Positions 1 to 10,787 are shown, numbered from the stretch's first letter. The stretch: 10,787 nt of DNA from a virus (IMGVR_UViG_2534681766_000003:1-10787), one strand, 5' to 3'. The notes: a model not told the origin generated them from the letters alone. Translations and numbers: made by a program.

Positions 1-662
1 CCCGGGAAGTGCGGCGCTTCCGTCTGAGTGGCCACGGTCACAGCATGGTTATCACTGACCTGCCCGGGGTGGGCGAGAGCCGGGACAGAGATGCAGAGTA
101 TGAAGCCCTGTACCGTGACATTCTGCCCGAACTGGACCTGGTGCTGTGGCTGATTAAAGCCGATGACCGCGCCCTGTCTGTGGATGAGTATTTCTGGCGA
201 CACATCCTGCACCGGGGACATCAGCAGGTGCTGTTTGTGGTGACGCAGGCCGACAAAACGGAGCCCTGCCATGAATGGGATATGGCCGGTATTCAGCCTT
301 CTCCCGCACAGGCACAGAATATTCGCGAAAAAACGGAGGCGGTATTCCGTCTGTTCCGGCCCGTACATCCGGTTGTGGCCGTATCGGCCCGCACCGGCTG
401 GGAACTGGATACGCTGGTCAGTGCGCTCATGACAGCGCTTCCCGACCATGCCGCCAGTCCCCTGATGACCCGCCTGCAGGACGAGCTGCGCACGGAATCT
501 GTCCGGTCTCAGGCCCGTGAACAGTTTACCGGTGCGGTGGACCGGATATTTGACACAGCGGAGAGCGTCTGTATTGCCTCTGTTGCACGCACGGTTCTGC
601 GTGCCGTCCGTGACTCGGTGGTCTCTGTTGCCCGCGCTGTATGGAACTGGATTTTCTTCTGA
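1..662 (+). CDS. YfjP/YkfA/YeeP-family GTPase (50S ribosome-binding GTPase-like), C-terminal part; 5' end lies upstream of the window
   Basis: Open frame runs from the window edge to the stop at 660-662. The translation (…VITDLPGVGESRDRDAEYEALYRDILPELDLVLWLIKADDRALSVDEYFWRHIL…VVTQADK…) carries a DxxG-type switch region and an xxxD-type guanine-specificity region, and resembles the YfjP/YkfA/YeeP GTPases of E. coli CP4-type cryptic prophages as I remember them. Which paralog it is cannot be told from this fragment. Confidence 0.8.
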   Translation, partial: REVRRFRLSGHGHSMVITDLPGVGESRDRDAEYEALYRDILPELDLVLWLIKADDRALSVDEYFWRHILHRGHQQVLFVVTQADKTEPCHEWDMAGIQPSPAQAQNIREKTEAVFRLFRPVHPVVAVSARTGWELDTLVSALMTALPDHAASPLMTRLQDELRTESVRSQAREQFTGAVDRIFDTAESVCIASVARTVLRAVRDSVVSVARAVWNWIFF

Positions 663-745
663 ACACTCTGCCAGGGGAAATGCCTGATTACATTGCGTTA
701 ACCAACTGAAAACATGACCCCCCCCCTCATACCCACCTCTTTCTC

Positions 746-774
746 TTGCGTGACCTCCCTGCTGTTAATAGAAT
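746..774 (+). promoter_or_regulatory. Putative sigma70 promoter (-35 TTGCGT 746-751, 17-bp spacer, -10 TAGAAT 769-774), with predicted start site at about 780-782
   Basis: Hexamers with consensus-like spacing, read by eye in the intergenic region between the GTPase gene and the DUF968-like gene. The predicted start falls on the first GATC of the downstream cluster. Confidence 0.3.
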
Positions 775-778
775 AAAA

Positions 779-823
779 CGATCGATAAAACAGGTATCGA
801 TCGTTACTATCGATCGTTTATAG
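779..823 (+). promoter_or_regulatory. GATC cluster in direct repeats (CGATCGAT / TATCGATCG x3); candidate Dam-methylation/OxyR-type phase-variation operator
   Basis: GATC at 780-783, 799-802 and 812-815, three sites in 36 bp against an expectation of about one per 256 bp. The octamer ATCGATCG or CGATCGAT occurs at 779-786, 796-803 and 809-816, and CTAT / TATAG half-site-like elements flank the third copy. The layout resembles the agn43 (flu) regulatory region, which lies downstream of yeeP in E. coli K-12. Confidence 0.4.
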
Positions 824-928
824 TGGTTAATGGTCTGCGAAAAGGCAGTTGAATCTCTTCATCATGCAGAACGGAATTGCACAAAACGGACTGATACTTC
901 TCTGGCGGATGAGAGAGGGGAAGCATTT

Positions 929-1354
929 ATGTCCGGGAAAAACCACTTTACCCGGGAAAGTGACCTTGTGCCTTCGGTTCCTGCCACCAGCATCATCCAG
1001 GATAAAGCGAAAAAGGTGCTGGCGCTGAAAGTGGATCCGGAGTCGCCGGAGTCTTTTATGTTACGCCCAAAACGTCGCCGCTGGGTTAATGAAAAGTACA
1101 CGCGCTGGGTTAAGACACAGCCGTGTGCATGTTGTGGAAAGCCTGCTGATGATCCCCACCACCTGATAGGTCACGGTCAGGGTGGAATGGGAACAAAAGC
1201 GCATGACCTCTTTGTGTTGCCTTTGTGCAGAAAGCATCACGACGAGCTGCATGCGGATACCGTGGCATTTGAAGAGATGTATGGCTCCCAGCTGGAGCTG
1301 ATATTTCGTTTTATCGATCGTGCGCTGGCGATCGGCGTAATTACGACAGCTTAA
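929..1354 (+). CDS. DUF968-like phage protein with a CxxC…HH…C…HH zinc-binding (HNH-like) motif
   Basis: Six-frame ORF 830..1354. I prefer the internal ATG at 929 (MSGKNHF…) because it follows a GAGAGAGGGGAA Shine-Dalgarno-like tract. The motif …CACCGKPADDPHHLIGHG…LPLCRKHHDELH matches my memory of DUF968 (YdfU-like) prophage proteins. The alternative start at 830 would give 174 aa. Confidence 0.6.
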   Translation: MSGKNHFTRESDLVPSVPATSIIQDKAKKVLALKVDPESPESFMLRPKRRRWVNEKYTRWVKTQPCACCGKPADDPHHLIGHGQGGMGTKAHDLFVLPLCRKHHDELHADTVAFEEMYGSQLELIFRFIDRALAIGVITTA

Positions 1355-2065
1355 GTGTATGGAGCGCTGAGAAGTATGAATCAACAAGACTTGAATTTTG
1401 TCAGAATAGAATTACGTCGTGCGCTGTTTGACTTCTCTGGGGGGACAAAAGGGCAGCTTGAGGCTTTCACTGAACACCCACCAGCAGACAAAAATGCCAC
1501 TCCACGCCGTGGAATTCATCTTGTCGAACTCGAAGGTGATAAGGGACCACGCTTTGTTAACTCGCTTTCCGCGCCATTGTACGTGCAAGAAACACGTAGC
1601 CGCCCCAGGCCAATGCCGCCGATAAAAGATGTAGAATTTGAGTCCGCGCCGTGGCGTAGGGCAGTGTCCGCGCTTAGTGGATACCAGCAGGCTTGGTTGC
1701 GGTACTGTTACGGTTTTGACCTTAACTATACGCACCAGGTGATGATGTGTGAATACGTCTGGAAGGCTTATCAGAAATGCTTGGGTGAAAACTCACTTCA
1801 GGAGCGCGTAGTAAAAAAACTAATAGGCCTAGTATGGCTTGCAGGACAGGAAATTGCTGCAACCCGAAACAATGAAACCTATAAAGACTACGCTGGTGCG
1901 GCGCTGGCCCGTATGGTTAGCGTTGACCGTTCGACATGGTTGCGCGTCTATTCAGGCCACTGGGCTGGGTTAAAGGCCGCTTTTACCCAGCTTGATGAGT
2001 CTGCGCTGGCCATGGCTCTTGAATACTATGAGGATGAAGAAGCTCTCAAAGTGGGAGAAATATGA
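1355..2065 (+). CDS. Probable phage antitermination protein Q-like late regulator (QuuQ / phage-82 Q type)
   Basis: 236-aa ORF. Its GTG start at 1355 abuts the DUF968-like stop at 1352-1354; an alternative ATG at 1376 (MNQQDLNF…) is equally plausible. Size and position match Q-like antiterminators of lambdoid prophages: it follows a DUF968 gene as quuQ neighbours ydfU in Qin, and is followed by a promoter-like stretch plus a terminator and then a moron. The family assignment is from memory, not a search. Confidence 0.45.
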   Translation: MYGALRSMNQQDLNFVRIELRRALFDFSGGTKGQLEAFTEHPPADKNATPRRGIHLVELEGDKGPRFVNSLSAPLYVQETRSRPRPMPPIKDVEFESAPWRRAVSALSGYQQAWLRYCYGFDLNYTHQVMMCEYVWKAYQKCLGENSLQERVVKKLIGLVWLAGQEIAATRNNETYKDYAGAALARMVSVDRSTWLRVYSGHWAGLKAAFTQLDESALAMALEYYEDEEALKVGEI

Positions 2066-2160
2066 CGTAAATTTCACTATCTCCTTCAAACGCGCTTGCA
2101 AAATACAACAAAATAAGCCATATTGGAAGCATATTTGATATGTTGCCAAAGTTTTATAAC

Positions 2161-2183
2161 CCCGCCGACGAGCGGGTTTTTTG
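2161..2183 (+). terminator. Intrinsic (Rho-independent) terminator, tR'-like
   Basis: CCCGC (2161-2165), loop CGACGA, GCGGG (2172-2176), followed by T6 (2177-2182). It lies about 95 nt downstream of the Q-like stop. Confidence 0.55.
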
Positions 2184-2258
2184 ATATGCGACATAACCTA
2201 TAACATTTTTTATAAAATAAAATATAATTGCTTTACCATTATCCTGTGAGTTGAGCAA

Positions 2259-3044
2259 ATGTATATATTTGAATTGACCAAACCTGGCAACTGGCTTGAA
2301 AGTGAAGACAAAGAGTGGTCTTGGAAAATAGAACGGCTTTTGGACCATCTTGAATTTGCATTTTATGAGGCTAATGTTGCATTAAATTTATTTATGCAGC
2401 AGCAAAACAATCAAATAGAACAACAAGGGGTTTCGCAATTGCAATGGGAAAAAGAAATGCAAGAACGAAGAACCATCGAAACACTAGTTCGTGAGGAGTT
2501 AGGTTTATCCCCTTTTGAGAATCCTGAAAACATACAATTTGAGGTGGACGCGAGGTTTAAACGAGAAAAGTGGAGTTCTGGTGAAATTCCACGTAGCCAC
2601 AAACATTGTGTGATTTTTATTTATGCAAAATCTTTTCTTTATTCTCTTGATACTATTGATAAATTTATAAAGGTTATTTCGAATGAACCTTATGCTCCTG
2701 AGTCGATAAAAGCCCTACACGATCAGATAGGTAAAGATTTTCCTGATCTCAGAGGGGTTAGGAATTCAACTCAACACCTCGAAGATAGGGCTCGAGGGCT
2801 TGGCGCAGGGAGAGAACCGAAGCCTTTGAATCTCCAGCCTATAAGTAATACCTTCATAAATGCACCGCAAGGTGCTTTGATATTAAATAATCTGAATGGC
2901 ACCAAATTCGGGTCAACTATGTCTGATGGTCACTATGGTGAAGTGGACATTTCACCTGAATCGTTATCAAAAATGCAAAGTATTGTTCAGGGCGTACTTG
3001 ACTCGTTTAAGTGGGTTGGTAATCAGCAACACTTACCAAGTTAA
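2259..3044 (+). CDS. Hypothetical protein, 261 aa, strongly AT-rich moron of unknown function (candidate defence / abortive-infection / toxin gene)
   Basis: Long intact ORF in a block (about 2070-3130) whose base composition is visibly AT-rich against GC-rich flanks. A TATAAT -10 box sits at 2223-2228 in an A/T-rich upstream tract. A terminator precedes it at 2161-2183 and another follows at 3068-3090. I recognise no family; it has no Walker or HNH motif and a single R-x4-H (RNSTQH). Confidence 0.7.
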   Translation: MYIFELTKPGNWLESEDKEWSWKIERLLDHLEFAFYEANVALNLFMQQQNNQIEQQGVSQLQWEKEMQERRTIETLVREELGLSPFENPENIQFEVDARFKREKWSSGEIPRSHKHCVIFIYAKSFLYSLDTIDKFIKVISNEPYAPESIKALHDQIGKDFPDLRGVRNSTQHLEDRARGLGAGREPKPLNLQPISNTFINAPQGALILNNLNGTKFGSTMSDGHYGEVDISPESLSKMQSIVQGVLDSFKWVGNQQHLPS

Positions 3045-3067
3045 CTAAACTTAATTATTCATATTAA

Positions 3068-3090
3068 GGCTGCCATATGGCGGCCTTTTT
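3068..3090 (+). terminator. Intrinsic terminator downstream of the AT-rich gene
   Basis: GGCTGCC (3068-3074), loop ATAT, GGCGGCC (3079-3085): a 7-bp stem with one G.U pair, followed by T5 (3086-3090). Confidence 0.6.
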
Positions 3091-3137
3091 ATTCCCTTCA
3101 CTTTTGAGAGGATTCACAGCAATTAAGAGGGGGCTAA

Positions 3138-3524
3138 ATGTCCGATCCGATTTCCGGCACAGGGTTAGCTGCTGGAGTCCTGACAGGCGCTAGTGTTTAT
3201 GGACTGCTGACCGGAACTGATTACGGTGTTGTATTTGGCGCATTTGCAGGGGCTGTATTCTACATCGCAACAGCAGCAGATCTGAGTTTATCGCGTCGAC
3301 TGGCATATTTTATCGTGTCGTATATTGCCGGAATCCTTTGCTCTGGGTTGGTTGGCTCCAAGCTGGCAAACTTGACCGGATACAGTGATAAACCTCTGGA
3401 TGCTATTGGTGCCGTAATCGTCTCTGCTTTAGCCGTTAAAATCCTGACGTTTCTGAATAACCAGGATATCGGTTCGCTGGTGGCGCTTATAACGCGCCGG
3501 GGAGGTTCAGGTGGAGCTAAATGA
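3138..3524 (+). CDS. Gly/Ala-rich multi-pass membrane protein (about 4 TM), possibly holin-like
   Basis: 128-aa ORF with a strong AGAGGGGG Shine-Dalgarno sequence before the ATG. It has four hydrophobic stretches (GLAAGVLTGASVYGLL, VVFGAFAGAVFYIATAA, LAYFIVSYIAGILCSGLVG, AIGAVIVSALAVKILTFL) and a charged C-terminus. It sits where lambdoid phages place lysis genes, immediately before HNH/terminase. Its composition matches the phage backbone, not the moron. No endolysin gene follows. Confidence 0.55.
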   Translation: MSDPISGTGLAAGVLTGASVYGLLTGTDYGVVFGAFAGAVFYIATAADLSLSRRLAYFIVSYIAGILCSGLVGSKLANLTGYSDKPLDAIGAVIVSALAVKILTFLNNQDIGSLVALITRRGGSGGAK

Positions 3525-3541
3525 CCCGACAGCAACTATAA

Positions 3542-3763
3542 ATGCGCTGTTACGGAACAAAGTGGGAAGTCATCCGGGAGCGGATACTTAAGCGCGACAA
3601 AGGGCTGTGTCAGAACCATCTACGGCAGGCGATAGTGAAGCAGGCGTCCTGCGTGGACCACATCAAGGCGAAGGCCCACGGCGGTACTGATGAAGACAGC
3701 AACCTTGAAAGCCTGTGCTGGTCGTGTCACGCAGCGAAGACCGCGCGTGAGCGGCTCAAGTGA
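3542..3763 (+). CDS. HNH endonuclease (phage packaging-associated)
   Basis: 73-aa ORF with an HNH signature: …RDKGLCQNH…VDHIKAKAHGGTDEDSNLESLCWSCHAAK… It lies immediately upstream of the terminase small subunit, as in HK97-like phages. An in-frame stop at 3539-3541 fixes the start at 3542; there is no obvious Shine-Dalgarno sequence. Confidence 0.75.
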   Translation: MRCYGTKWEVIRERILKRDKGLCQNHLRQAIVKQASCVDHIKAKAHGGTDEDSNLESLCWSCHAAKTARERLK

Positions 3764-3889
3764 TAATTAATGTCATCATCAGACTGGGGAGGGGGAGGTC
3801 AAATCTCTGCGACCGCGCGCCTTCCGGACTGCCCGCCCCATCGTTTTTTTATACCCGCGAAAAATGAAATTTAACCAGGAGTGCCGCAT

Positions 3890-4384
3890 ATGGCTGGAAC
3901 GGCGGGGCGTTCCGGGCGTCGCCCCAAGCCAACGGCGCGCAAGGCGCTGGCCGGAAACCCCGGCAAGCGAGCCCTGAACAAAGATGAACCTGTTTTTACG
4001 CCCATCAAAGGTGTTGAGCCACCGGAGTGGTTCGCTGAAGAAGATCTCCCTCTCGCCACGATCATGTGGCAACTGACAACCAAAGAACTCTGCGGTCAGG
4101 GCCTGCTGTGCGTGACTGACCTCGCGGTGCTTGAGCGGTGGTGCGTGGCCTATGAGTTCTGGCGACGTGCTGTGAAAAATATTGCCATACAGGGCAACAC
4201 CATCACCGGCGCAATGGGCGGCAGGGTCAAAAATCCGGAGCTGACAGCCAAAAAAGAACAGGAGTCCGAGATGAGCAGCACGGGGGCAATGCTCGGACTC
4301 GACCCCAGCAGCCGCCAGCGTCTGATTGGCCTGGCGGGGCAGAAGAAAGCCACTAACCCGTTTCTGAAAATTATCGAATCATGA
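3890..4384 (+). CDS. Terminase small subunit, P27 family
   Basis: The N-terminus [34 protein letters not shown] matches the P27-family TerS signature (…GNPGKRPLN…). AGGAG lies 8 nt upstream of the ATG at 3890. The stop overlaps the TerL start (ATGA at 4381-4384). Confidence 0.85.
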
Positions 4385-6114
4385 GCCGGAAATCTTACCC
4401 CAACGTAAATGCTGCAAATCAGTATGCCCGGGATGTCGTGCGCGGAAAGATTGTTGCCTGCCAGTTTGTGATTCAGGCCTGCCAGCGCCATCTTGATGAC
4501 CTGATGGCGGAAAAAAGTAAGTCGTTTCGTTACCGCTTCGACAAGGACCTGGCTGAACGGGCCGCCAAATTTATTCAGCTGTTACCGCATACCAAGGGGG
4601 AATGGGCATTCAAGCGGATGCCCATCACGCTGGAGCCGTGGCAGCTCTTTGTGATCTGCTGTGCGTTTGGCTGGGTCTATAAAGGTACCCGGCTGCGCCG
4701 CTTCCGTGAGGTGTATACCGAAATCCCCCGTAAGAACGGCAAATCGGCAATCTCTGCCGGTGTCGCCCTGTATTGTTTTGCCTGTGATAACGAGTTCGGT
4801 GCGGAAGTGTATTCCGGTGCCACGACGGAGAAACAGGCATGGGAAGTCTTTCGTCCGGCACGACTGATGTGTAAACGCACACCCATGCTGACGGAAGCGT
4901 TCGGGATTGAGGTTAACGCCTCAAACATGAACCGTCCGGAGGATGGTGCGCGGTTTGAACCGCTGATCGGTAACCCCGGTGATGGTTCATCACCCCACTG
5001 TGCCGTGGTGGATGAATATCACGAGCACGCCACAGATGCGCTTTACACCACAATGCTTACCGGGATGGGGGCGCGACGCCAGCCACTGATGTGGGCTATC
5101 ACCACCGCCGGGTACAACATTGAGGGGCCGTGCTACGACAAGCGGCGGGAAGTTATCGAGATGCTCAATGGCTCGGTTCCCAACGATGAACTGTTCGGGA
5201 TCATCTATACCGTTGATGAAGGTGACGACTGGACCGACCCGCAGGTGCTGGAAAAAGCCAATCCAAATATTGGCGTGTCGGTTTATCGCGAATTTTTGTT
5301 AAGTCAGCAGCAGCGTGCGAAAAATAATGCCCGTCTGGCAAACGTCTTTAAAACAAAACACCTCAATATCTGGGTGTCGGCGCGTTCGGCGTATTTCAAC
5401 CTGGTGAGCTGGCAGAGCTGCGAGGATAAATCACTGACCCTTGAGCAGTTCGAGGGGCAGCCGTGCATTCTGGCCTTTGACCTGGCGCGTAAGCTGGATA
5501 TGAACAGCATGGCGCGACTTTATACCCGCGAGATTGACGGTAAAACGCATTACTACAGTGTGGCCCCGCGTTTCTGGGTACCGTATGACACGGTGTATAG
5601 CGTCGAGAAAAATGAAGATCGCCGGACAGCCGAACGCTTTCAGAAATGGGTGGAAATGGGCGTCCTGACCGTTACCGATGGTGCAGAGGTGGATTATCGC
5701 TACATCCTCGAAGAGGCCAAAGCGGCGAACAAAATCAGCCCGGTCAGCGAGTCACCCATCGACCCCTTCGGGGCGACCGGGTTGTCACATGACCTTGCTG
5801 ATGAAGACCTGAACCCCGTCACCATTATTCAGAACTACACCAACATGTCCGACCCGATGAAAGAGCTGGAAGCGGCAATTGAATCGGGGCGCTTTCATCA
5901 TGATGGCAATCCCATCATGACCTGGTGTATCGGCAACGTGGTCGGAAAAACCATTCCGGGTAACGATGATGTGGTGAAACCCGTCAAAGAGCAGGCAGAA
6001 AACAAAATCGATGGTGCAGTTGCGCTGATTATGGCGGTTGGCAGAGCCATGCTGTACGAGAAAGAAGACACGCTGTCTGACCACATTGAGTCCTACGGGA
6101 TCCGCTCGCTTTAA
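4381..6114 (+). CDS. Terminase large subunit (HK97-like)
   Basis: 577-aa ORF with a Walker A-like motif ([11 protein letters not shown]) and a Walker B-like motif ([10 protein letters not shown]), with size and position typical of TerL. Translationally coupled to TerS. Confidence 0.9.
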
Positions 6115-6125
6115 CTGAGGTAATT

Positions 6126-6308
6126 ATGATCATGCTGATTCTCGCGCCTCTGGTAGGTGTGCTGGGGGCGCTTTTGCTGGCGTATGGTGCCTGGCTGATT
6201 TATCCCCCGGTGGGTTTTGTTGTTGCCGGGGTGTTGTGCCTGTTCTGGTCGTGGCTGGTGGCGCGATATCTCGACCGTACACAGCAGTCTGTCGGCGGAG
6301 GTAAATAG
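6126..6308 (+). CDS. Small hydrophobic membrane protein (60 aa) between TerL and portal
   Basis: GAGG Shine-Dalgarno before the ATG at 6126. Two predicted TM helices. Its stop TAG (6306-6308) overlaps the portal GTG start (6308-6310), suggesting coupling. Confidence 0.5.
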
Positions 6309-7549
6309 TGTTCTTTTCGGGATTATTTCAACGAAAAAGTGACGCACCGGTGACCACGCCCGCAGAGCTGGCGGATGCTATCGGGTTGTCCTACGACACC
6401 TATACCGGAAAGCAGATCAGCAGTCAGCGGGCCATGCGACTGACGGCGGTTTTTTCCTGCGTCAGAGTGCTGGCAGAGTCGGTCGGGATGTTGCCCTGCA
6501 ATCTGTATCACCTGAACGGCAGCCTTAAACAGAGAGCCACCGGCGAACGTCTGCATAAGCTGATCTCCACGCATCCCAATGGCTATATGACGCCGCAGGA
6601 GTTCTGGGAGCTGGTGGTCACCTGTCTGTGCCTGAGGGGAAACTTTTACGCCTACAAAGTGAAAGCATTTGGCGAAGTGGCTGAACTGCTGCCCGTCGAT
6701 CCCGGCTGTGTGGTACCGAAGCTTAACAGTAGCTGGGAGCCGGTCTATCAGGTCACATTCCCGGACGGCTCAACGGATGTGCTGACCCAGGAGGATATCT
6801 GGCATGTGCGCACGCTGACGCTGGACGGTCTGGTGGGACTGAATCCCATCGCCTATGCCCGCGAGGCAATATCGCTGGCAGCAGCGACTGAAGAGCACGG
6901 TGCCAGACTGTTCAGCAATGGCGCGGTGACGTCCGGTGTGTTGCGTACAGAACAGACGCTGTCGGATCAGGCTTATGAGCGCCTGAAGAAAGATTTTGAG
7001 GAGCGTCACACCGGGCTTGGCAATGCTCACCGTCCGATGATCCTTGAGATGGGGCTGGACTGGAAGTCGATGGCATTGAACGCCGAGGATAGCCAGTTCC
7101 TGGAAACCCGCAAGTTTCAGCTTGAAGAAATCTGTCGTCTGTTCCGTGTGCCCTTGCACATGGTGCAGAACACCGATCGTGCCACCTTCAACAATATCGA
7201 AGAGCTGGGGCTGGGATTTATCAACTATTCACTGGTGCCGTATCTGACCCGCATCGAACAGCGGATCAACACCGGACTGGTACGAAAAAGTAAGCAGGGC
7301 GTTTATTACGCCAAATTTAACGCCGGGGCGTTACTGCGCGGGGATATGAAGTCCCGTTTTGAAGCCTACGCCACCGGGATCAACTGGGGAATTTACTCTC
7401 CCAATGACTGCCGCGACCTGGAAGATATGAATCCGCGTCCCGGTGGTGATGTCTATCTCACACCGATGAACATGACCACGAAACCCTCCGATGGCAGTAA
7501 AGCCGGTAAGCAGAAGGATAACGCCAATGCAGACGAAACAACGTCTTGA
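6308..7549 (+). CDS. Phage portal protein, HK97 family
   Basis: 413-aa ORF with a GTG start preceded by GGAGG (6297-6301). N-terminus MFFSGLFQRK…; size and placement between TerL and the prohead protease fit HK97-type portals. Confidence 0.9.
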   Translation: MFFSGLFQRKSDAPVTTPAELADAIGLSYDTYTGKQISSQRAMRLTAVFSCVRVLAESVGMLPCNLYHLNGSLKQRATGERLHKLISTHPNGYMTPQEFWELVVTCLCLRGNFYAYKVKAFGEVAELLPVDPGCVVPKLNSSWEPVYQVTFPDGSTDVLTQEDIWHVRTLTLDGLVGLNPIAYAREAISLAAATEEHGARLFSNGAVTSGVLRTEQTLSDQAYERLKKDFEERHTGLGNAHRPMILEMGLDWKSMALNAEDSQFLETRKFQLEEICRLFRVPLHMVQNTDRATFNNIEELGLGFINYSLVPYLTRIEQRINTGLVRKSKQGVYYAKFNAGALLRGDMKSRFEAYATGINWGIYSPNDCRDLEDMNPRPGGDVYLTPMNMTTKPSDGSKAGKQKDNANADETTS

Positions 7550-8177
7550 TGTACCGCTGAGTCTGAAATCTGTCAGTGACTCCGGTGAGTTTGAAGGGTA
7601 TGGCTCCGTCTTTGGTGTAAAGGACAGCCACGATGATGTGGTGATGTCCGGGGCATTTGCTGCTTCCCTACGGGCGTGGAGTGACAGAAAAGCGTTACCT
7701 GCGCTGCTCTGGCAGCACCGCATGGATGAACCCATCGGTGTTTACACCGAAATGAAGGAAGACGATGTCGGGCTTTACGTCAGGGGACGGTTGCTTATTG
7801 ATGATGATCCCCTCGCAAAACGCGCACATGCACACATGAAGGCCGGTTCGTTAACCGGCCTTTCTATTGGGTACGTCCTGAAAGACTGGGAATACGACCG
7901 GAGCAAAGAAGCCTTTCTGCTGAAAGAAATCGACCTCTGGGAAGTCAGCCTGGTGACGTTCCCGTCTAACGACGAGGCGCGGATCAGCGACGTCAAGAAC
8001 GCACTGGCCCGCGGGGAAATCCCCGAACAGAAAAAAATCGAAAGAGTCCTGCGTGATGTCGGACTCTCCCGTACCCAGGCCAAAGCATTCATGGCCGGGG
8101 GCTATGGCGCACTGTCCCTGCGCGACGCTGAGGATGTGGGCTCTGCACTGAATGCACTGAAAAATCTGAACTTCTAA
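7527..8177 (+). CDS. Prohead maturation protease, HK97 family (peptidase S78/U35)
   Basis: Six-frame ORF 7491..8177. The preferred start is the ATG at 7527, with AAGGA 8 nt upstream, overlapping the 3' end of the portal gene. Sequence (…GYGSVFGVKDSHDDVVMSGAF…) and position between portal and capsid are typical. Confidence 0.85.
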   Translation: MQTKQRLDVPLSLKSVSDSGEFEGYGSVFGVKDSHDDVVMSGAFAASLRAWSDRKALPALLWQHRMDEPIGVYTEMKEDDVGLYVRGRLLIDDDPLAKRAHAHMKAGSLTGLSIGYVLKDWEYDRSKEAFLLKEIDLWEVSLVTFPSNDEARISDVKNALARGEIPEQKKIERVLRDVGLSRTQAKAFMAGGYGALSLRDAEDVGSALNALKNLNF

Positions 8178-8191
8178 TCAGGAGAAATACG

Positions 8192-9397
8192 ATGGCGGTT
8201 GATATTAAAGATGTCGAACAGGTCGCGCAGGAGCTGCAGCAGAAGTTTGACGACTTCAAAGCAAAGAACGACAAGCGCGTGGATGCGATTGAGCAGGAAA
8301 AAGGCAAACTTGCCGGGCAGGTGGAAACCCTGAACGGGAAACTCAGCGAGCTGGAAAATCTCAAAAGCGACCTTGAAAAAGAGCTGCTTGAGCTGAAACG
8401 TCCGGCAGGTGGTGCGCAAAATAAACTGGCCACAGAGCACAAAGAGGCGTTTGTGGGCTTTCTGCGTAAAGGCCGTGAAGACGGTCTGCGCGATCTGGAG
8501 CGCAAGGCATTGCAGGTGGGCACCGATGAAGACGGTGGCTATGCCGTGCCGGAAGCACTGGATCGCAACATTCTCACCCTGCTGAAAGATGAAGTGGTGA
8601 TGCGCCAGGAAGCCACGGTGATCACTGTTGGCGGTTCCGACTACAAAAAACTGGTGAATCTGGGCGGCACGGCTTCCGGATGGGTGGGCGAGACTGACGC
8701 GCGCTCCCAGACTGCCACCTCAAAACTGGGACTGATTGAACCTTTCATGGGGGAAATCTACGGTAACCCGCAGGCCACTCAGAAAATGCTGGATGATGCC
8801 TTCTTCAACGTGGAGGCCTGGATCAACAGCGAGCTGGCGACCGAATTTGCCGAACAGGAAGAAATTGCCTTTACCACCGGTGATGGCACCAAGAAGCCAA
8901 AAGGGTTCCTGGCGTATGAATCCACCGATGAAACCGATAAGGTTCGTGCGTTCGGTAAACTTCAGCATATTGTATCCGGTGAAGCGACGACGGTGACCGC
9001 AGACGCCATTATCAAACTGATTTACACGCTGCGTAAGGCACACCGCACTGGCGCGAAGTTCATGATGAACAACAACAGCCTGTTTGCCATCCGTCTGCTG
9101 AAAGACACCGAGGGTAACTATCTGTGGCGTCCGGGGCTGGAGCTGGGGCAACCGTCCTCTCTGGCGGGTTACGGTATCGCTGAAAACGAACAGATGCCGG
9201 ATATCGCCGCTGATGCGAAAGCTATTGCATTTGGTAACTTCAAACGGGGTTACACCATCGTTGACCGTATCGGTACCCGCATTCTGCGTGATCCGTACAC
9301 CAATAAACCGTTTGTCGGTTTTTATACCACCAAGCGCACCGGCGGCATGCTGGTCGATTCGCAGGCCATCAAACTGCTGAAGATTGCAGCGGCGTAA
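8192..9397 (+). CDS. Major capsid protein, HK97 family, with N-terminal coiled-coil delta (scaffolding) domain
   Basis: 401-aa ORF with AGGAG before the ATG. The N-terminal roughly 100 aa are coiled-coil-like (…QELQQKFDDFKAKNDKRVDAIEQEKGKLAGQVETLNGKLSELENLKSDLEKELLELK…), followed by a capsid-fold-sized body. No separate scaffold gene is present, as in HK97. Confidence 0.9.
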   Translation: MAVDIKDVEQVAQELQQKFDDFKAKNDKRVDAIEQEKGKLAGQVETLNGKLSELENLKSDLEKELLELKRPAGGAQNKLATEHKEAFVGFLRKGREDGLRDLERKALQVGTDEDGGYAVPEALDRNILTLLKDEVVMRQEATVITVGGSDYKKLVNLGGTASGWVGETDARSQTATSKLGLIEPFMGEIYGNPQATQKMLDDAFFNVEAWINSELATEFAEQEEIAFTTGDGTKKPKGFLAYESTDETDKVRAFGKLQHIVSGEATTVTADAIIKLIYTLRKAHRTGAKFMMNNNSLFAIRLLKDTEGNYLWRPGLELGQPSSLAGYGIAENEQMPDIAADAKAIAFGNFKRGYTIVDRIGTRILRDPYTNKPFVGFYTTKRTGGMLVDSQAIKLLKIAAA

Positions 9398-9402
9398 TCA
9401 CT

Positions 9403-9430
9403 CAGGGGCGCTGAATTGCGCCCCTGTTCT
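9403..9430 (+). terminator. Strong hairpin (9-bp perfect GC-rich stem, 6-nt loop) just after the capsid gene; possible leaky terminator or RNA-stability element
   Basis: CAGGGGCGC (9403-9411), loop TGAATT, GCGCCCCTG (9418-9426), followed by TTCT and no long T-run. Confidence 0.4.
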
Positions 9431-9446
9431 GACAGGTGAAAGAATC

Positions 9447-10574
9447 ATGATCCTGAAACAAGATCTGAAATGGTCACCGGACGGTAAAGCCAGCGAAACT
9501 AATGCTAAATCCAGTGAAACAAACGCGGCGAAATCTGCGGCGGACGCACTTAATTATCGCAACCAGGCGCAAGTAATTGTTGGCGATAATATCGGTCTTG
9601 GCTCAGCCCCGCGTGATTGTCCTGATATTTCCGGCAACCCATCAGGGTATATCGGATTTATGCGCATTATGAGTAATGCAAAAGGCTTTCCATCGATTGC
9701 ATCCGGTGAAAGCAGTCTTACGGGGTTTATTAGTCAGGTAGATGGAACACCAGCGTATACAGGTGTATTTCAGGGATGGACTACGCGCTCGCTTTATACT
9801 TATCGCTGGAATCCGACAATAGGCCCGCAATGGACACGCCACGCAAGAAAAGATGAGGTTATCCGATTTCAGCGTTCAAGCGACACAAGAACCATCATTT
9901 TATCTACTGACGTTCAGGCGGACGGCTGTTACTTACAGGTTGATGCTGACGGTCAGTGGGGCGCATTTAACCCTAAAGCTGGTAGATGGCAACCGCTCGC
10001 AGTTGCGCAAGGTGGCACTGGGGCGAATGATGCAAGTACAGCGCGCTCTAAACTTGAAGTCATGTTTGAAGCAAAAACTGGCCTTGATGCGAATACGAAC
10101 TTAAACGATATAAAAGGTACTACAGCCGGTTTTTATTACCAACCAATGTCTGCCAACGCAAAGCCAGAACTAAATTACCCGATACAGCTTGCTGGTGCAT
10201 TGTTAGTGCAAAGAACTGGTGCTAATGGTAGTGATGGTTGTATCCAGAGCTATTTTGTATATAACAATTCATCAATTCTTTATAGAAGGATATATACCAG
10301 CACACAAGGTTGGAGTGTATGGAAAAAAATAGTATTAACAGAAAGAATTGAAGAAGGCGAATCGACAACTTACGTTTATTCGAATTACTCACCATCAGCG
10401 CCACGACTTCAGGTGTCAACATCTGGATTGTGGGGTTGCCATAACGGATCGTCATGGGTTCCATTACCTATTGGACAAGGAGGCACTAATGCGGCAACTG
10501 TTGATGGTGCCAGAACGAATCTTGGCTTAGGTAGGAACAACAGCCCTCAACTTAACAGTCTATTTCTTGGGTAA
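9447..10574 (+). CDS. Tail fibre-like protein, N-terminal about 374 aa; 3' end interrupted by IS1 (truncated gene)
   Basis: Six-frame ORF 9384..10574. The preferred start is the ATG at 9447, with AGGTGA 8 nt upstream. The N-terminal low-complexity tract KASETNAKSSETNAAKSAADA resembles lambda Stf and T7 gp17 fibres. Two GGTxA…AR(S/T)xL(E/G) motifs (AQGGTGANDASTARSKLEV, GQGGTNAATVDGARTNLGLG) are fibre-repeat-like. The last sense codon and the stop (10569-10574) are supplied by the IS1 terminus GGTAATGAC. Confidence 0.6.
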   Translation: MILKQDLKWSPDGKASETNAKSSETNAAKSAADALNYRNQAQVIVGDNIGLGSAPRDCPDISGNPSGYIGFMRIMSNAKGFPSIASGESSLTGFISQVDGTPAYTGVFQGWTTRSLYTYRWNPTIGPQWTRHARKDEVIRFQRSSDTRTIILSTDVQADGCYLQVDADGQWGAFNPKAGRWQPLAVAQGGTGANDASTARSKLEVMFEAKTGLDANTNLNDIKGTTAGFYYQPMSANAKPELNYPIQLAGALLVQRTGANGSDGCIQSYFVYNNSSILYRRIYTSTQGWSVWKKIVLTERIEEGESTTYVYSNYSPSAPRLQVSTSGLWGCHNGSSWVPLPIGQGGTNAATVDGARTNLGLGRNNSPQLNSLFLG

Positions 10575-10787
10575 TGACTCCAACTTATTGATAGTGTTTT
10601 ATGTTCAGATAATGCCCGATGACTTTGTCATGCAGCTCCACCGATTTTGAGAACGACAGCGACTTCCGTCCCAGCCGTGCCAGGTGCTGCCTCAGATTCA
10701 GGTTATGCCGCTCAATTCGCTGCGTATATCGCTTGCTGATTACGTGCAGCTTTCCTTTCAGGCGGGATTCATACAGCGGCCAGCCAT
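10570..10787 (-). mobile_element. IS1 insertion sequence, partial (right inverted-repeat end; continues beyond the window)
   Basis: 10570-10787 matches the reverse complement of the IS1 right end as I remember it: GGTAATGACTCCAACTTATTGATAGTGTTTTATGTTCAGATAATGCCCGATGACTTTGTCATGCAGCTCCACCGATTTTGAGAACGACAGCG… including the terminal inverted repeat. Confidence 0.9.
10585..10787 (-). CDS. insB: IS1 transposase InsB, C-terminal part (5' end beyond the window)
   Basis: Minus-strand translation ends …[29 protein letters not shown], with the stop codon complement at 10585-10587. This matches the IS1 InsB C-terminus. Confidence 0.85.

What the first reader, a model, noticed from the sequence alone, without database searches (positions are those of the whole stretch)
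3542..10574. Head-only HK97-type module with a tail-fibre gene fused directly after the capsid gene
The window holds a complete-looking packaging and head set (HNH, TerS, TerL, portal, protease, major capsid protein) but no head-tail adaptor, stopper, tail tube, tape-measure or baseplate genes. A tail-fibre-like gene starts only 49 bp after the capsid stop. This is either a deletion-scarred cryptic prophage or a satellite-like element that builds its own capsids, and perhaps supplies its own fibre, while taking tails from a helper phage.
Basis: partly seen in the sequence, partly recalled or inferred. Interest (0 to 1): 0.65.

Follow-up and report, generated by a model that had tools for sequence, protein, structure and literature searches.

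The report
Deletion-scarred prophage remnant, not a satellite
This is an ordinary decayed prophage in an E. coli draft genome: three deletions and an IS1 insertion left an intact-looking HK97-type head gene block joined to a fragment of a lambda-type side tail fibre gene, and it lacks the features that define a capsid-forming satellite.

Summary
Window 3542-10574 holds an HNH remnant, TerS, TerL, YmfR, portal, S78 protease and an HK97-type capsid gene. A fibre-like ORF starts 49 bp after the capsid stop, and there are no connector or tail genes.

The window is the whole contig APXD01000179.1 of E. coli 2730350, and it is a patchwork with three junctions:
- J1 (948-950) joins the upstream region of the Ag43 gene of a CP4-type island to codon 197 of the prophage DUF968 gene.
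- J2 (3551/3552) removes 2.2 kb: the second holin, endolysin, spanin-like gene and the first 46 codons of HNH.
- J3 (9485/9486) fuses 13 codons of the small post-capsid ORF in frame to Stf residue 324 of a lambda-type side tail fibre.

IS1 (from 10570) then cuts the fibre gene and supplies its stop codon.

A second assembly carries the same three junctions without IS1, so they are not assembly errors. Intact relatives with an identical TerL continue after the capsid gene with connector, lambda-type tail, J, Lom and Stf. J3 is therefore best read as one deletion of about 14 kb.

The head proteins are 95-100% identical to phage SfIV. Nothing shows an integrase, AlpA or primase; adaptor and connector genes are absent; a holin is present. 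The cf-PICI reading fails. Interest is low.

The parts
1..662 (+). 3' part of a GTPase-family gene of a CP4-type genomic island (not prophage)
   Evidence: 100% identical over 1-950 to E. coli WP7-S17-ESBL-04, where it is annotated 'GTPase family protein' and is followed by an Ag43 gene. Weak Dynamin_N and GTP_EFTU Pfam hits.
663..950 (+). Upstream region and leader of the Ag43 (agn43/flu) gene, with three GATC sites at 780-783, 799-802 and 812-815. It is cut 83 nt before the Ag43 start codon.
   Evidence: Sequence read and aligned to L004. The Ag43 CDS starts at L004 9033 and the match ends at L004 8950. Three GATC sites in a single OxyR site are the known agn43 switch (PMC2909390).
948..950 (.). 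Junction J1: island DNA joined to the middle of the prophage DUF968 gene, with TTA microhomology
   Evidence: The match to the island ends at 950 and the match to prophage L001 starts at 948. The junction is absent from all 5,426 complete E. coli genomes and present in a second assembly (L008).
929..1354 (+). Fusion ORF (141 aa): 6 codons of a short agn43-leader ORF joined in frame to codons 197-331 of DUF968/HNHc_6
   Evidence: Pfam DUF968 matches profile positions 34-171. The intact gene is 331 aa in L001. Frame arithmetic.
1376..2065 (+). Late-gene antiterminator Q (229 aa)
   Evidence: Pfam Phage_antiter_Q, E = 4e-37. 99.96% DNA identity to the intact CD45 prophage.
2259..3044 (+). 261-aa low-GC gene of unknown function in the slot between Q and the holin
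   Evidence: phrog_5322, unknown function, E = 1e-124. No Pfam, NCBIfam or PADLOC hit. GC 0.37-0.40.
3138..3524 (+). Holin (128 aa), the only lysis gene left
   Evidence: Pfam Phage_holin_8, E = 9e-35.
3551..3552 (.). Junction J2: a 2,195-bp deletion measured against CD45, removing the second holin, the GH19 endolysin, the DUF2514 gene, two small ORFs and HNH codons 1-46. TA microhomology.
   Evidence: blastn of window 948-3552 to L001 18001-20605 and of 3551-9486 to L001 22801-28736. Junction alignment. L001 annotation.
3542..3763 (+). HNH endonuclease remnant: 3 foreign codons plus HNH residues 47-116. No clear ribosome-binding site by eye, and not called as a gene in the source annotation.
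   Evidence: Pfam HNH, E = 9e-11. Protein alignment with the 116-aa CD45 HNH. No gene called here, and no record of this product.
3764..3889 (.). Region between HNH and terS where the linear ends of related phage records map (presumed cos region)
   Evidence: The records of SfII, SfIV, SfI and ST64B begin at positions matching window 3765-3875. In SfIV the HNH gene is the last gene and terS the first. Cos function is inferred, not shown.
3890..4384 (+). Small terminase subunit, P27 family (164 aa, full length)
   Evidence: Pfam Terminase_4, TIGR01558. 161/164 residues identical to SfIV.
4381..6114 (+). Large terminase subunit (577 aa, full length)
   Evidence: Pfam TerL_ATPase plus TerL_nuclease. 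570/577 identical to SfIV. The exact protein occurs in intact prophages.
6126..6308 (+). YmfR-like small membrane protein (60 aa)
   Evidence: phrog_502. Annotated ymfR in L001 and L020.
6308..7549 (+). Portal protein (413 aa, full length)
   Evidence: Pfam Phage_portal, E = 5e-108. 411/413 identical to SfIV.
7527..8177 (+). HK97-family prohead serine protease (216 aa, full length)
   Evidence: Pfam Peptidase_S78. 216/216 identical to SfIV.
8192..9397 (+). HK97-type major capsid protein (401 aa, full length)
   Evidence: Pfam Phage_capsid, TIGR01554. 397/401 identical to SfIV.
9485..9486 (.). Junction J3: codon 13 of the small post-capsid ORF joined in frame to codon 324 of a lambda-type stf gene. 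TA microhomology.
   Evidence: Three-way alignment. Matches to prophages end at 9486. The stf match is 100% from 9485 to 10569. Absent from complete E. coli genomes and present in L008.
9447..10574 (+). Fusion ORF (375 aa): M1-G13 of the post-capsid ORF plus Stf residues 324 to about 685. The last codon and the TAA stop come from the IS1 end.
   Evidence: phrog_1020 matches residues 1-15 and tail-fibre phrog_6578 matches residues 13-360 at profile positions 183-544 of 1210. Position in the 1160-aa Stf. The IS1-free sibling ORF is 850 aa with Peptidase_S74.
10570..10787 (-). End of an IS1 element (terminal inverted repeat and 3' part of the transposase gene). The contig ends inside it.
   Evidence: Gene call 10585-10787 (-) hits PF03400 DDE_Tnp_IS1. 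The stf match ends at 10569, and the sibling contig L008 continues with stf sequence at this point. The sequence was read; that GGTAATGACTCCAACTTATTGATAG is the IS1 terminal repeat is recognised from my own knowledge.

Best explanation
The region is the remnant of a temperate lambdoid phage. The ancestor had an SfV/e14-like early and Q region, an HK97-type head module and, most likely, a lambda-type non-contractile tail ending in J, Lom and Stf. Four independent lesions disabled it. (1) A deletion or rearrangement, J1, removed everything to the left of DUF968 codon 197. That includes integrase, immunity and replication genes. It joined the rest to the agn43 leader of a neighbouring CP4-type island. 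(2) A 2.2-kb deletion, J2, removed the second holin, the endolysin, the spanin-like gene and the first 46 codons of the HNH packaging nuclease. (3) A deletion of about 14 kb, J3, removed every gene from the head-tail connector to the first third of the side tail fibre gene. By chance it left an in-frame fusion of 13 codons of the post-capsid ORF to Stf residue 324. (4) In this strain only, IS1 inserted into the fused fibre gene. The junctions and the IS1 insertion are shown. The order of events, apart from IS1 coming last, is inferred, as is the ancestor's tail type. The element cannot excise, replicate, lyse the cell or make tails, and its capsids could not join a tail because the connector genes are gone. 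The intact reading frames of TerS, TerL, portal, protease and capsid most likely reflect how recent the deletions are. Two carriers differ by 1 base in 10.6 kb, so intactness is not evidence of selection for function. Its likely biological role is passive, as a source of head-gene alleles for recombination with incoming related phages.
For: Every segment maps at high identity to a known context. Window 1-950 is 100% identical to a CP4-type island. Window 948-3552 is 99.96% and 3551-9486 is 97.6% identical to the intact CD45 prophage, with a 2,195-bp gap between them. The head region is 98.6-99.2% identical to prophages L010-L020. Window 9485-10569 is 100% identical to an internal part of full-length stf genes that sit after gpJ and lom. 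The junctions show only TTA, TA and TA microhomology. Intact relatives that encode the identical TerL protein continue after the capsid gene with a 62-aa ORF, connector, head closure, gp10-like, gp17, tube, G/T, tape measure, M, L, K, I, J, Lom, Stf and a tfa remnant. A second assembly (GCA_049980225.1, L008) carries all three junctions with one mismatch in 10,569 nt but has no IS1. There the fibre ORF runs to 850 aa with a Peptidase_S74 domain. The head proteins are full length and 95-100% identical to phage SfIV. The exact J1 fusion protein is on only 3 contigs of the whole gene collection, and none of the junctions is in 5,426 complete E. coli genomes. This indicates a recent, lineage-restricted decay product.
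Against: No intact prophage was found that combines this head module with exactly this stf allele. A65EC's stf differs in the segment concerned, and identical alleles were seen only behind lambda-type or P22-type heads. J3 could therefore be a recombination between two different prophages rather than one internal deletion. The contig ends in repeats on both sides, so the chromosomal site and what lies further out are unknown. All six head genes are intact and a presumed cos region is retained, so capsid production cannot be excluded from sequence alone.
Confidence: 0.9

Rival explanations
1. It is a capsid-forming satellite (cf-PICI-like). The element makes its own small capsids and packages itself, takes tails from a helper phage, and perhaps supplies its own fibre.
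For: HNH, TerS, TerL, portal, protease and capsid lie together without tail structural genes. That is the superficial signature of cf-PICI packaging modules (PMC10085698). A presumed cos region is retained.
Against: Head-tail adaptor and connector genes, which are core cf-PICI components that set tail compatibility, are absent. A holin, a forbidden component in the cf-PICI model, is present. No integrase, AlpA/regulator or primase-replicase is present in the window or in the 2.25 kb further upstream in L008, and none is annotated within 8 kb upstream in the 100% identical island L004. The left boundary is an illegitimate junction inside a gene. The head genes are 97-99% identical to genes of functional phages and intact prophages, not a separate lineage. 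HNH is 5'-truncated. The right boundary falls 39 nt into a phage gene. The fibre piece lacks its attachment domain.
Confidence: 0.02
2. It is an assembly artefact. The contig is a chimera of unrelated pieces made by a short-read assembler, and the capsid-fibre adjacency does not exist in the cell.
For: The window is one whole contig of a draft assembly that ends in repeats at both ends. None of its three junctions occurs in 5,426 complete E. coli genomes.
Against: An independent assembly of another isolate (GCA_049980225.1) has the same three junctions base for base and differs by lacking the IS1. The 375-aa fusion protein is listed from NCBI and from Logan and was read on 2 contigs. Overlaps of 2-3 bp are not what k-mer assemblers join on.
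Confidence: 0.02
3. It is a domesticated or co-opted head module. The host keeps the head genes, now placed downstream of the phase-variable agn43 promoter and Q, for a function such as making tailless capsids or particles, or interfering with incoming related phages.
For: All six head ORFs are intact and full length. Q and the region after it are 99.96% identical to an intact prophage. J1 places the agn43 upstream region with its three GATC sites in the sense orientation before DUF968' and Q. Each of the three junctions leaves an ATG-started in-frame ORF.
Against: The structure is confined to a handful of near-identical assemblies, with 3 contigs and 1 SNP in 10.6 kb. Intactness is therefore explained by recency. 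IS1 has already hit the block in one carrier. Expressing the retained holin would be harmful. There are no expression data.
Confidence: 0.05

Closest known systems
Shigella/E. coli temperate phages SfIV, SfII, SfI (and Salmonella ST64B), and the related intact prophage of E. coli CD45 at thrW
   Same: The order HNH - (cos) - TerS - TerL - YmfR - portal - S78 protease - HK97-type capsid - small ORF is identical. DNA identity is 96.7-97.6% for SfIV, SfII, SfI and CD45 and about 89% for ST64B, and head proteins are 95-100% identical to SfIV. The DUF968-Q-261-aa-holin region is 99.96% identical to CD45.
   Different: Those phages continue with adaptor, head closure, neck, sheath, tube, tape measure, baseplate and a short fibre. 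The window has none of these. It also lacks integrase, immunity, replication, endolysin and spanin genes, and the 5' part of HNH.
Intact lambdoid prophages with an HK97-type head and a lambda-type tail, for example E. coli A65EC (NZ_CP182331.1) and loci L010-L019
   Same: The TerL protein is identical and the head DNA is 98.6-99.2% identical. These prophages have J - Lom - Stf - tfa remnant at the distal end. This is the layout from which a single deletion gives the capsid-fibre fusion.
   Different: They are complete at about 40 kb. A65EC's stf allele differs from the window's in the retained segment, and its Q and lysis regions are of another type.
Lambda-type side tail fibre Stf ('prophage tail fiber N-terminal domain' ... 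pyocin knob ... S74 peptidase), for example WP_249827430.1 of E. coli AR_0077
   Same: Window 9485-10569 is 100% identical to nt 969-2053 of this 3,483-nt gene.
   Different: The window lacks residues 1-323, the N-terminal domain. Because of IS1 it also lacks about 475 C-terminal residues, including the S74 intramolecular chaperone domain. The start comes from an unrelated head-region ORF.
Capsid-forming PICIs (cf-PICI, for example EcCIEDL933, EcCIGN02175, KpCIDSM30104)
   Same: A block of HNH, TerS, TerL, portal, protease and capsid genes with no tail structural genes.
   Different: There is no integrase, AlpA or primase-replicase module and no adaptor or connector genes. A holin, a Q antiterminator and a fibre fragment are present. 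The head genes belong to a phage lineage, and the boundaries are deletion scars inside genes.
Cryptic prophages of E. coli K-12 (e14, Rac, Qin, DLP12) and the thrW remnant of E. coli WCHEC020031 (L005)
   Same: These are defective prophages shaped by internal deletions and IS insertions. L005 shows an independent fusion of an early gene of the same prophage type to the same stf gene, 122 nt from the window's breakpoint.
   Different: A different set of genes survives. Here the head block survives; in L005 the early region does. The comparison with the K-12 elements rests on my own knowledge and was not tested here.

Membership tests
cf-PICI (capsid-forming phage-inducible chromosomal island; SatelliteFinder model, PMC10085698) | Integrase at one end of the element | tested here: not met
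   No integrase family in any window ORF, nor in the 2.25 kb further upstream in L008. The 100% identical island context L004 has none annotated within 8 kb. Regions beyond the contig could not be seen.
cf-PICI (capsid-forming phage-inducible chromosomal island; SatelliteFinder model, PMC10085698) | Regulator (AlpA, MerR or Stl type) and primase-replicase module | tested here: not met
   None found by Pfam or PHROGs in the window. The upstream genes are a GTPase, a DUF2971 gene and hypotheticals of a CP4-type island.
cf-PICI (capsid-forming phage-inducible chromosomal island; SatelliteFinder model, PMC10085698) | Own packaging and head genes: HNH, TerS, TerL, portal, protease, capsid | tested here: met
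   All are present, but HNH lacks 46 of 116 residues.
cf-PICI (capsid-forming phage-inducible chromosomal island; SatelliteFinder model, PMC10085698) | [quoted passage not shown] | tested here: not met
   Absent. The sequence after the capsid gene goes 39 nt into the small ORF and then into stf. Intact relatives have Phage_connect_1 and Phage_HCP at this place.
cf-PICI (capsid-forming phage-inducible chromosomal island; SatelliteFinder model, PMC10085698) | No holin and no tail genes (forbidden components) | tested here: not met
   Phage_holin_8 at 3138-3524. Tail-fibre fragment at 9486-10569.
cf-PICI (capsid-forming phage-inducible chromosomal island; SatelliteFinder model, PMC10085698) | Capsid and terminase genes form lineages separate from those of phages | tested here: not met
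   No tree was built, but TerL, portal, protease and capsid are 98.8-100% identical in protein to phage SfIV. The exact TerL protein occurs in complete prophages.
HK97-type head and packaging module | HK97-fold major capsid protein, S78 prohead protease, portal, P27-family TerS, TerL and an associated HNH nuclease, in that gene order | tested here: met
   Pfam and NCBIfam hits well above the curated cut-offs. Colinear with SfIV. HNH is truncated. The fold itself was not modelled.
Defective (cryptic) prophage derived from a lambdoid temperate phage | Colinear high-identity match to intact prophages or phages, interrupted by deletions that remove essential functions | tested here: met
   Three mapped junctions against L001, L020 and L002. 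Integrase, repressor, replication, endolysin, connector and tail genes are missing relative.
Defective (cryptic) prophage derived from a lambdoid temperate phage | Inability to excise, replicate or form plaques | not testable with these tools
   Inferred from gene loss. It needs induction experiments.
Lambda-type side tail fibre (Stf) | N-terminal tail-attachment domain ('prophage tail fiber N-terminal domain') | tested here: not met
   The fusion starts at Stf residue 324 of 1160. The PHROG match starts at profile position 183 of 1210.
Lambda-type side tail fibre (Stf) | C-terminal receptor-binding part with the S74 intramolecular chaperone | tested here: not met
   IS1 cuts it off at 10570 in the window. 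It is present in the IS1-free sibling L008 (Peptidase_S74).
IS1 | IS1 terminal inverted repeat and IS1 transposase | tested here: met
   PF03400 DDE_Tnp_IS1 on the 10585-10787 (-) gene call. The terminal repeat at 10570 was recognised from my own knowledge of the IS1 sequence. Only one end lies in the contig, so a target duplication could not be checked.

The most novel reading that the evidence does not exclude
The accidental junction J1 has put the Q antiterminator, and through it the surviving late operon (holin, terminase, portal, protease, capsid, fibre fusion), under the Dam/OxyR phase-variable agn43 promoter. A subpopulation of cells would then make tailless HK97-type capsids, or head proteins that interfere with or recombine into incoming SfV/HK97-like phages. 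That would be an early snapshot of how a head-only, satellite-like or domesticated element could arise from a prophage by deletion.
Probability: 0.04. Interest if true: 0.5.

Novelty: already known. Interest (0 to 1): 0.12.

Why it matters
It matters little in itself. Decayed prophages with surviving gene blocks, fused reading frames and IS insertions are common in E. coli. The useful results are negative and methodological. A head-only gene block next to a fibre gene can look like a capsid-forming satellite, and comparison with intact relatives separates the two quickly. The telling features are deletion junctions inside genes, missing adaptor and connector genes, a retained holin, and head genes nearly identical to those of functional phages. 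The case also shows how one HK97-type head module is combined in nature with either Mu-type contractile tails or lambda-type tails. It further shows that the repetitive 5' third of stf has been a deletion endpoint twice in prophages of this type.

Tried and rejected
- An exact scan of one genome per species (genome contigs) for the 52-nt J3 junction found nothing. This is uninformative, because E. coli is represented by one genome there.
- I searched for an intact Mu-type-tail (SfV-like) prophage whose fibre gene carries this stf segment. The query was a chimera of the YmfQ gene and the stf segment. No record had the two within joining distance. I therefore dropped the idea that the fibre piece is the cognate fibre of an SfV-type myovirus.
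- I first considered that J3 joined two different prophages, SfV-like at thrW and lambdoid at the DLP12 site. A simple deletion between those sites would remove essential genes (my own knowledge of the K-12 map). The idea became unnecessary once prophages with the same head and a lambda-type tail were found.
- An exact look-up of the 73-aa HNH remnant found no record, so J2 could not be confirmed that way. It was confirmed through L008 instead.
- tRNA and Rfam scans of the window found nothing. The promoter and terminator scan gave only generic hits.
- PADLOC, NCBIfam and Pfam gave nothing for the 261-aa gene.
- The paper with the agn43 transcription start (PMC135096) is not held. The position of the promoter relative to the GATC sites therefore rests on memory.
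- I did not use structure prediction, the large protein searches or covariance models, because nothing in the question depended on them.

Full report
**Source and observation**

The window is the complete 10,787-bp contig APXD01000179.1 of the draft genome of Escherichia coli 2730350, GCA_000356325.2.
- Pfam identifies an HNH motif (3542-3763), a P27-family small terminase (3890-4384) and a large terminase with ATPase and nuclease domains (4381-6114).
- It also identifies a portal (6308-7549), an S78 prohead protease (7527-8177) and an HK97-type major capsid protein (8192-9397).
- A 60-aa YmfR-like gene lies between TerL and the portal.
- No ORF matches a connector, tube, sheath, tape-measure or baseplate family.
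- The capsid gene stops at 9397 and an ORF starts at 9447, 49 bp later. That ORF matches a tail-fibre PHROG at E = 9e-125.

**The window is a patchwork**

Comparison with annotated genomes resolves it into five pieces.
1. Window 1-950 is 100% identical to a CP4-type genomic island. It holds the 3' part of a GTPase-family gene and the region upstream of an Ag43 autotransporter gene.
2. Window 948-3552 is 99.96% identical to an intact prophage of E. coli CD45. It holds the 3' part of a DUF968 gene, antiterminator Q, a 261-aa gene of unknown function and a holin.
3. Window 3551-9486 matches the same prophage at 97.6% but 2,195 bp further along. It holds the HNH 3' part, the head genes and the first 39 nt of a small post-capsid ORF.
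4. Window 9485-10569 is 100% identical to an internal part (nt 969-2053 of 3,483) of full-length lambda-type side tail fibre (stf) genes. In intact prophages these lie after gpJ and lom.
5. From 10570 the sequence is the end of IS1. The TAA that ends the fibre ORF (10572-10574) lies inside the IS1 terminal repeat.

**The three junctions**

Each junction shows only 2-3 bases of microhomology (TTA, TA, TA), as expected for illegitimate recombination.
- J1 cuts the agn43 leader 83 nt before the Ag43 start codon. It joins the leader in frame to DUF968 codon 197 of 331.
- J2 removes the second holin, the GH19 endolysin, the DUF2514 gene, two small ORFs and HNH codons 1-46. The surviving 73-aa ORF keeps the HNH core but is not called as a gene in the source annotation.
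- J3 joins codon 13 of the post-capsid ORF (MILKQDLKWSPDG) in frame to Stf residue K324 of 1160.

**The junctions are real**

A contig from a different assembly (GCA_049980225.1, JAAPLZ010000041.1, locus L008) matches window 1-10569 with one mismatch. It therefore carries J1, J2 and J3. It has no IS1. There the fused fibre ORF continues to 850 aa and ends with a Peptidase_S74 domain. IS1 is thus a later hit specific to this strain. What lies beyond its insertion point in that sibling is simply the rest of stf, not connector or tail genes.

None of the three junctions occurs in 5,426 complete E. coli genomes. The exact J1 fusion protein is on only three contigs of the large gene collection. The structure is therefore recent and confined to a narrow lineage.

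**What the ancestor looked like**

Phages SfIV, SfII and SfI and the CD45 prophage share the head block at about 97% DNA identity. They continue after the capsid gene with adaptor, head closure, neck, sheath, tube, tape measure, baseplate and a short fibre.

The exact TerL protein of the window, however, is encoded in intact prophages whose head DNA is closer still (98.6-99.2%). Their tails are lambda-type: connector, head closure, gp10-like, gp17, tube, G/T, tape measure, M, L, K, I, J, Lom, Stf and a tfa remnant. In the layout of E. coli A65EC, a single deletion of about 14 kb from codon 13 of the post-capsid ORF to codon 324 of stf reproduces the window's capsid-fibre fusion.

This step is inferred. 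A65EC's own stf allele differs in the retained segment. Identical alleles were seen only behind lambda-type or P22-type heads, and no SfV-type baseplate gene lies next to this segment in any complete genome. Stf therefore behaves as a freely exchanged module of lambdoid tails. Recombination between two prophages remains a possible origin for J3.

**Function**

The element lacks, or is not seen to carry, the following:
- an integrase, repressor and replication genes, all lost to the left of J1
- an endolysin and a spanin
- the N-terminal 40% of the packaging HNH nuclease
- all connector and tail genes

The fibre fusion has no N-terminal attachment domain. In this strain it also lacks the C-terminal S74 chaperone domain. 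From my own knowledge, such fibres need that domain to fold.

TerS, TerL, YmfR, portal, protease and capsid are full length and 95-100% identical to SfIV proteins. With one substitution in 10.6 kb between the two carriers, this intactness says nothing about selection. The best-supported reading is an inert prophage remnant that can at most donate head-gene alleles to related incoming phages (confidence about 0.9).

**The satellite reading**

The published cf-PICI model has 11 core components. They include integrase, a regulator, primase-replicase, HNH, TerS, TerL, portal, protease and capsid, plus a head-tail adaptor and connector. Holin and tail genes are forbidden components (PMC10085698). 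The adaptor and connector determine which tails can be taken (bioRxiv 10.1101/2025.02.11.637232).

Here only the packaging and head genes are met, and HNH is truncated. No integrase, regulator or primase was seen in the contig or in the upstream sequence available, and adaptor and connector genes are absent. A holin and a fibre fragment are present. The head genes are of phage lineage, and both boundaries are deletion scars inside genes. The block works like, and is, a piece of a phage, not a satellite.

**Other rivals**

An assembly chimera is excluded by the independent second assembly. A domesticated head module cannot be excluded from sequence. It has no support beyond the intact ORFs and the curious placement of the agn43 upstream region before Q.

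**Verdict**

This is a known kind of object and of low interest (0.12). The most novel reading still open is phase-variable expression of the surviving head operon from the agn43 promoter. I give it about 4%.

Noticed in passing
window 663-950 (GATC at 780-783, 799-802, 812-815; short ORF from ATG 929): The upstream region of an Ag43 (agn43) gene, including the three Dam GATC sites of the OxyR/Dam phase-variation switch, is retained. It now points into DUF968', Q and the late operon. The 8-codon leader ORF is fused in frame to DUF968 codon 197. Whether the phase-variable promoter drives Q is untested, and the promoter position relative to the GATC sites is from memory.
   Followed up: partly
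window 2259-3044: A 261-aa gene with low GC (0.37-0.40 against about 0.54 around it) sits between Q and the holin, the slot where lambdoid phages carry cargo genes. It matches phrog_5322 (unknown function). It has no Pfam, NCBIfam or PADLOC hit, and a terminator-like hairpin follows at 3066-3087.
   Followed up: partly
window 948-950, 3551-3552, 9485-9486: All three deletion junctions sit at TTA or TA microhomology. Each leaves an ATG-started ORF in frame with the remainder of the downstream gene (DUF968', HNH', Stf'). The chance of three in-frame outcomes is roughly 1 in 27. This could be coincidence or weak selection against polarity.
   Followed up: no
L005 6649-9792 (E. coli WCHEC020031, thrW site; similar fusions are annotated for H35-H49): This is an independent remnant of the same prophage type. 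The early-region replication (HTH) gene is fused to the same stf gene at a breakpoint 122 nt upstream of the window's, giving a 1,047-aa 'tail fiber domain-containing protein'. The repetitive SETNAK-coding 5' third of stf has thus been a deletion endpoint at least twice.
   Followed up: partly
L001/L009 versus L010-L020, downstream of the capsid gene: The same HK97-type head module (97-99% DNA identity, TerL protein identical in some) is coupled to Mu-type contractile tails in SfIV, SfII and CD45, and to lambda-type non-contractile tails in A65EC and others. The swap point lies somewhere just after the capsid gene. The exact mosaic boundary was not mapped.
   Followed up: no
L008 1-77: The left end of the sibling contig matches an IS66-family element in inverted orientation (L004 13264-13188). 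In that strain the CP4-type island upstream of the remnant is therefore itself interrupted by an IS.
   Followed up: no
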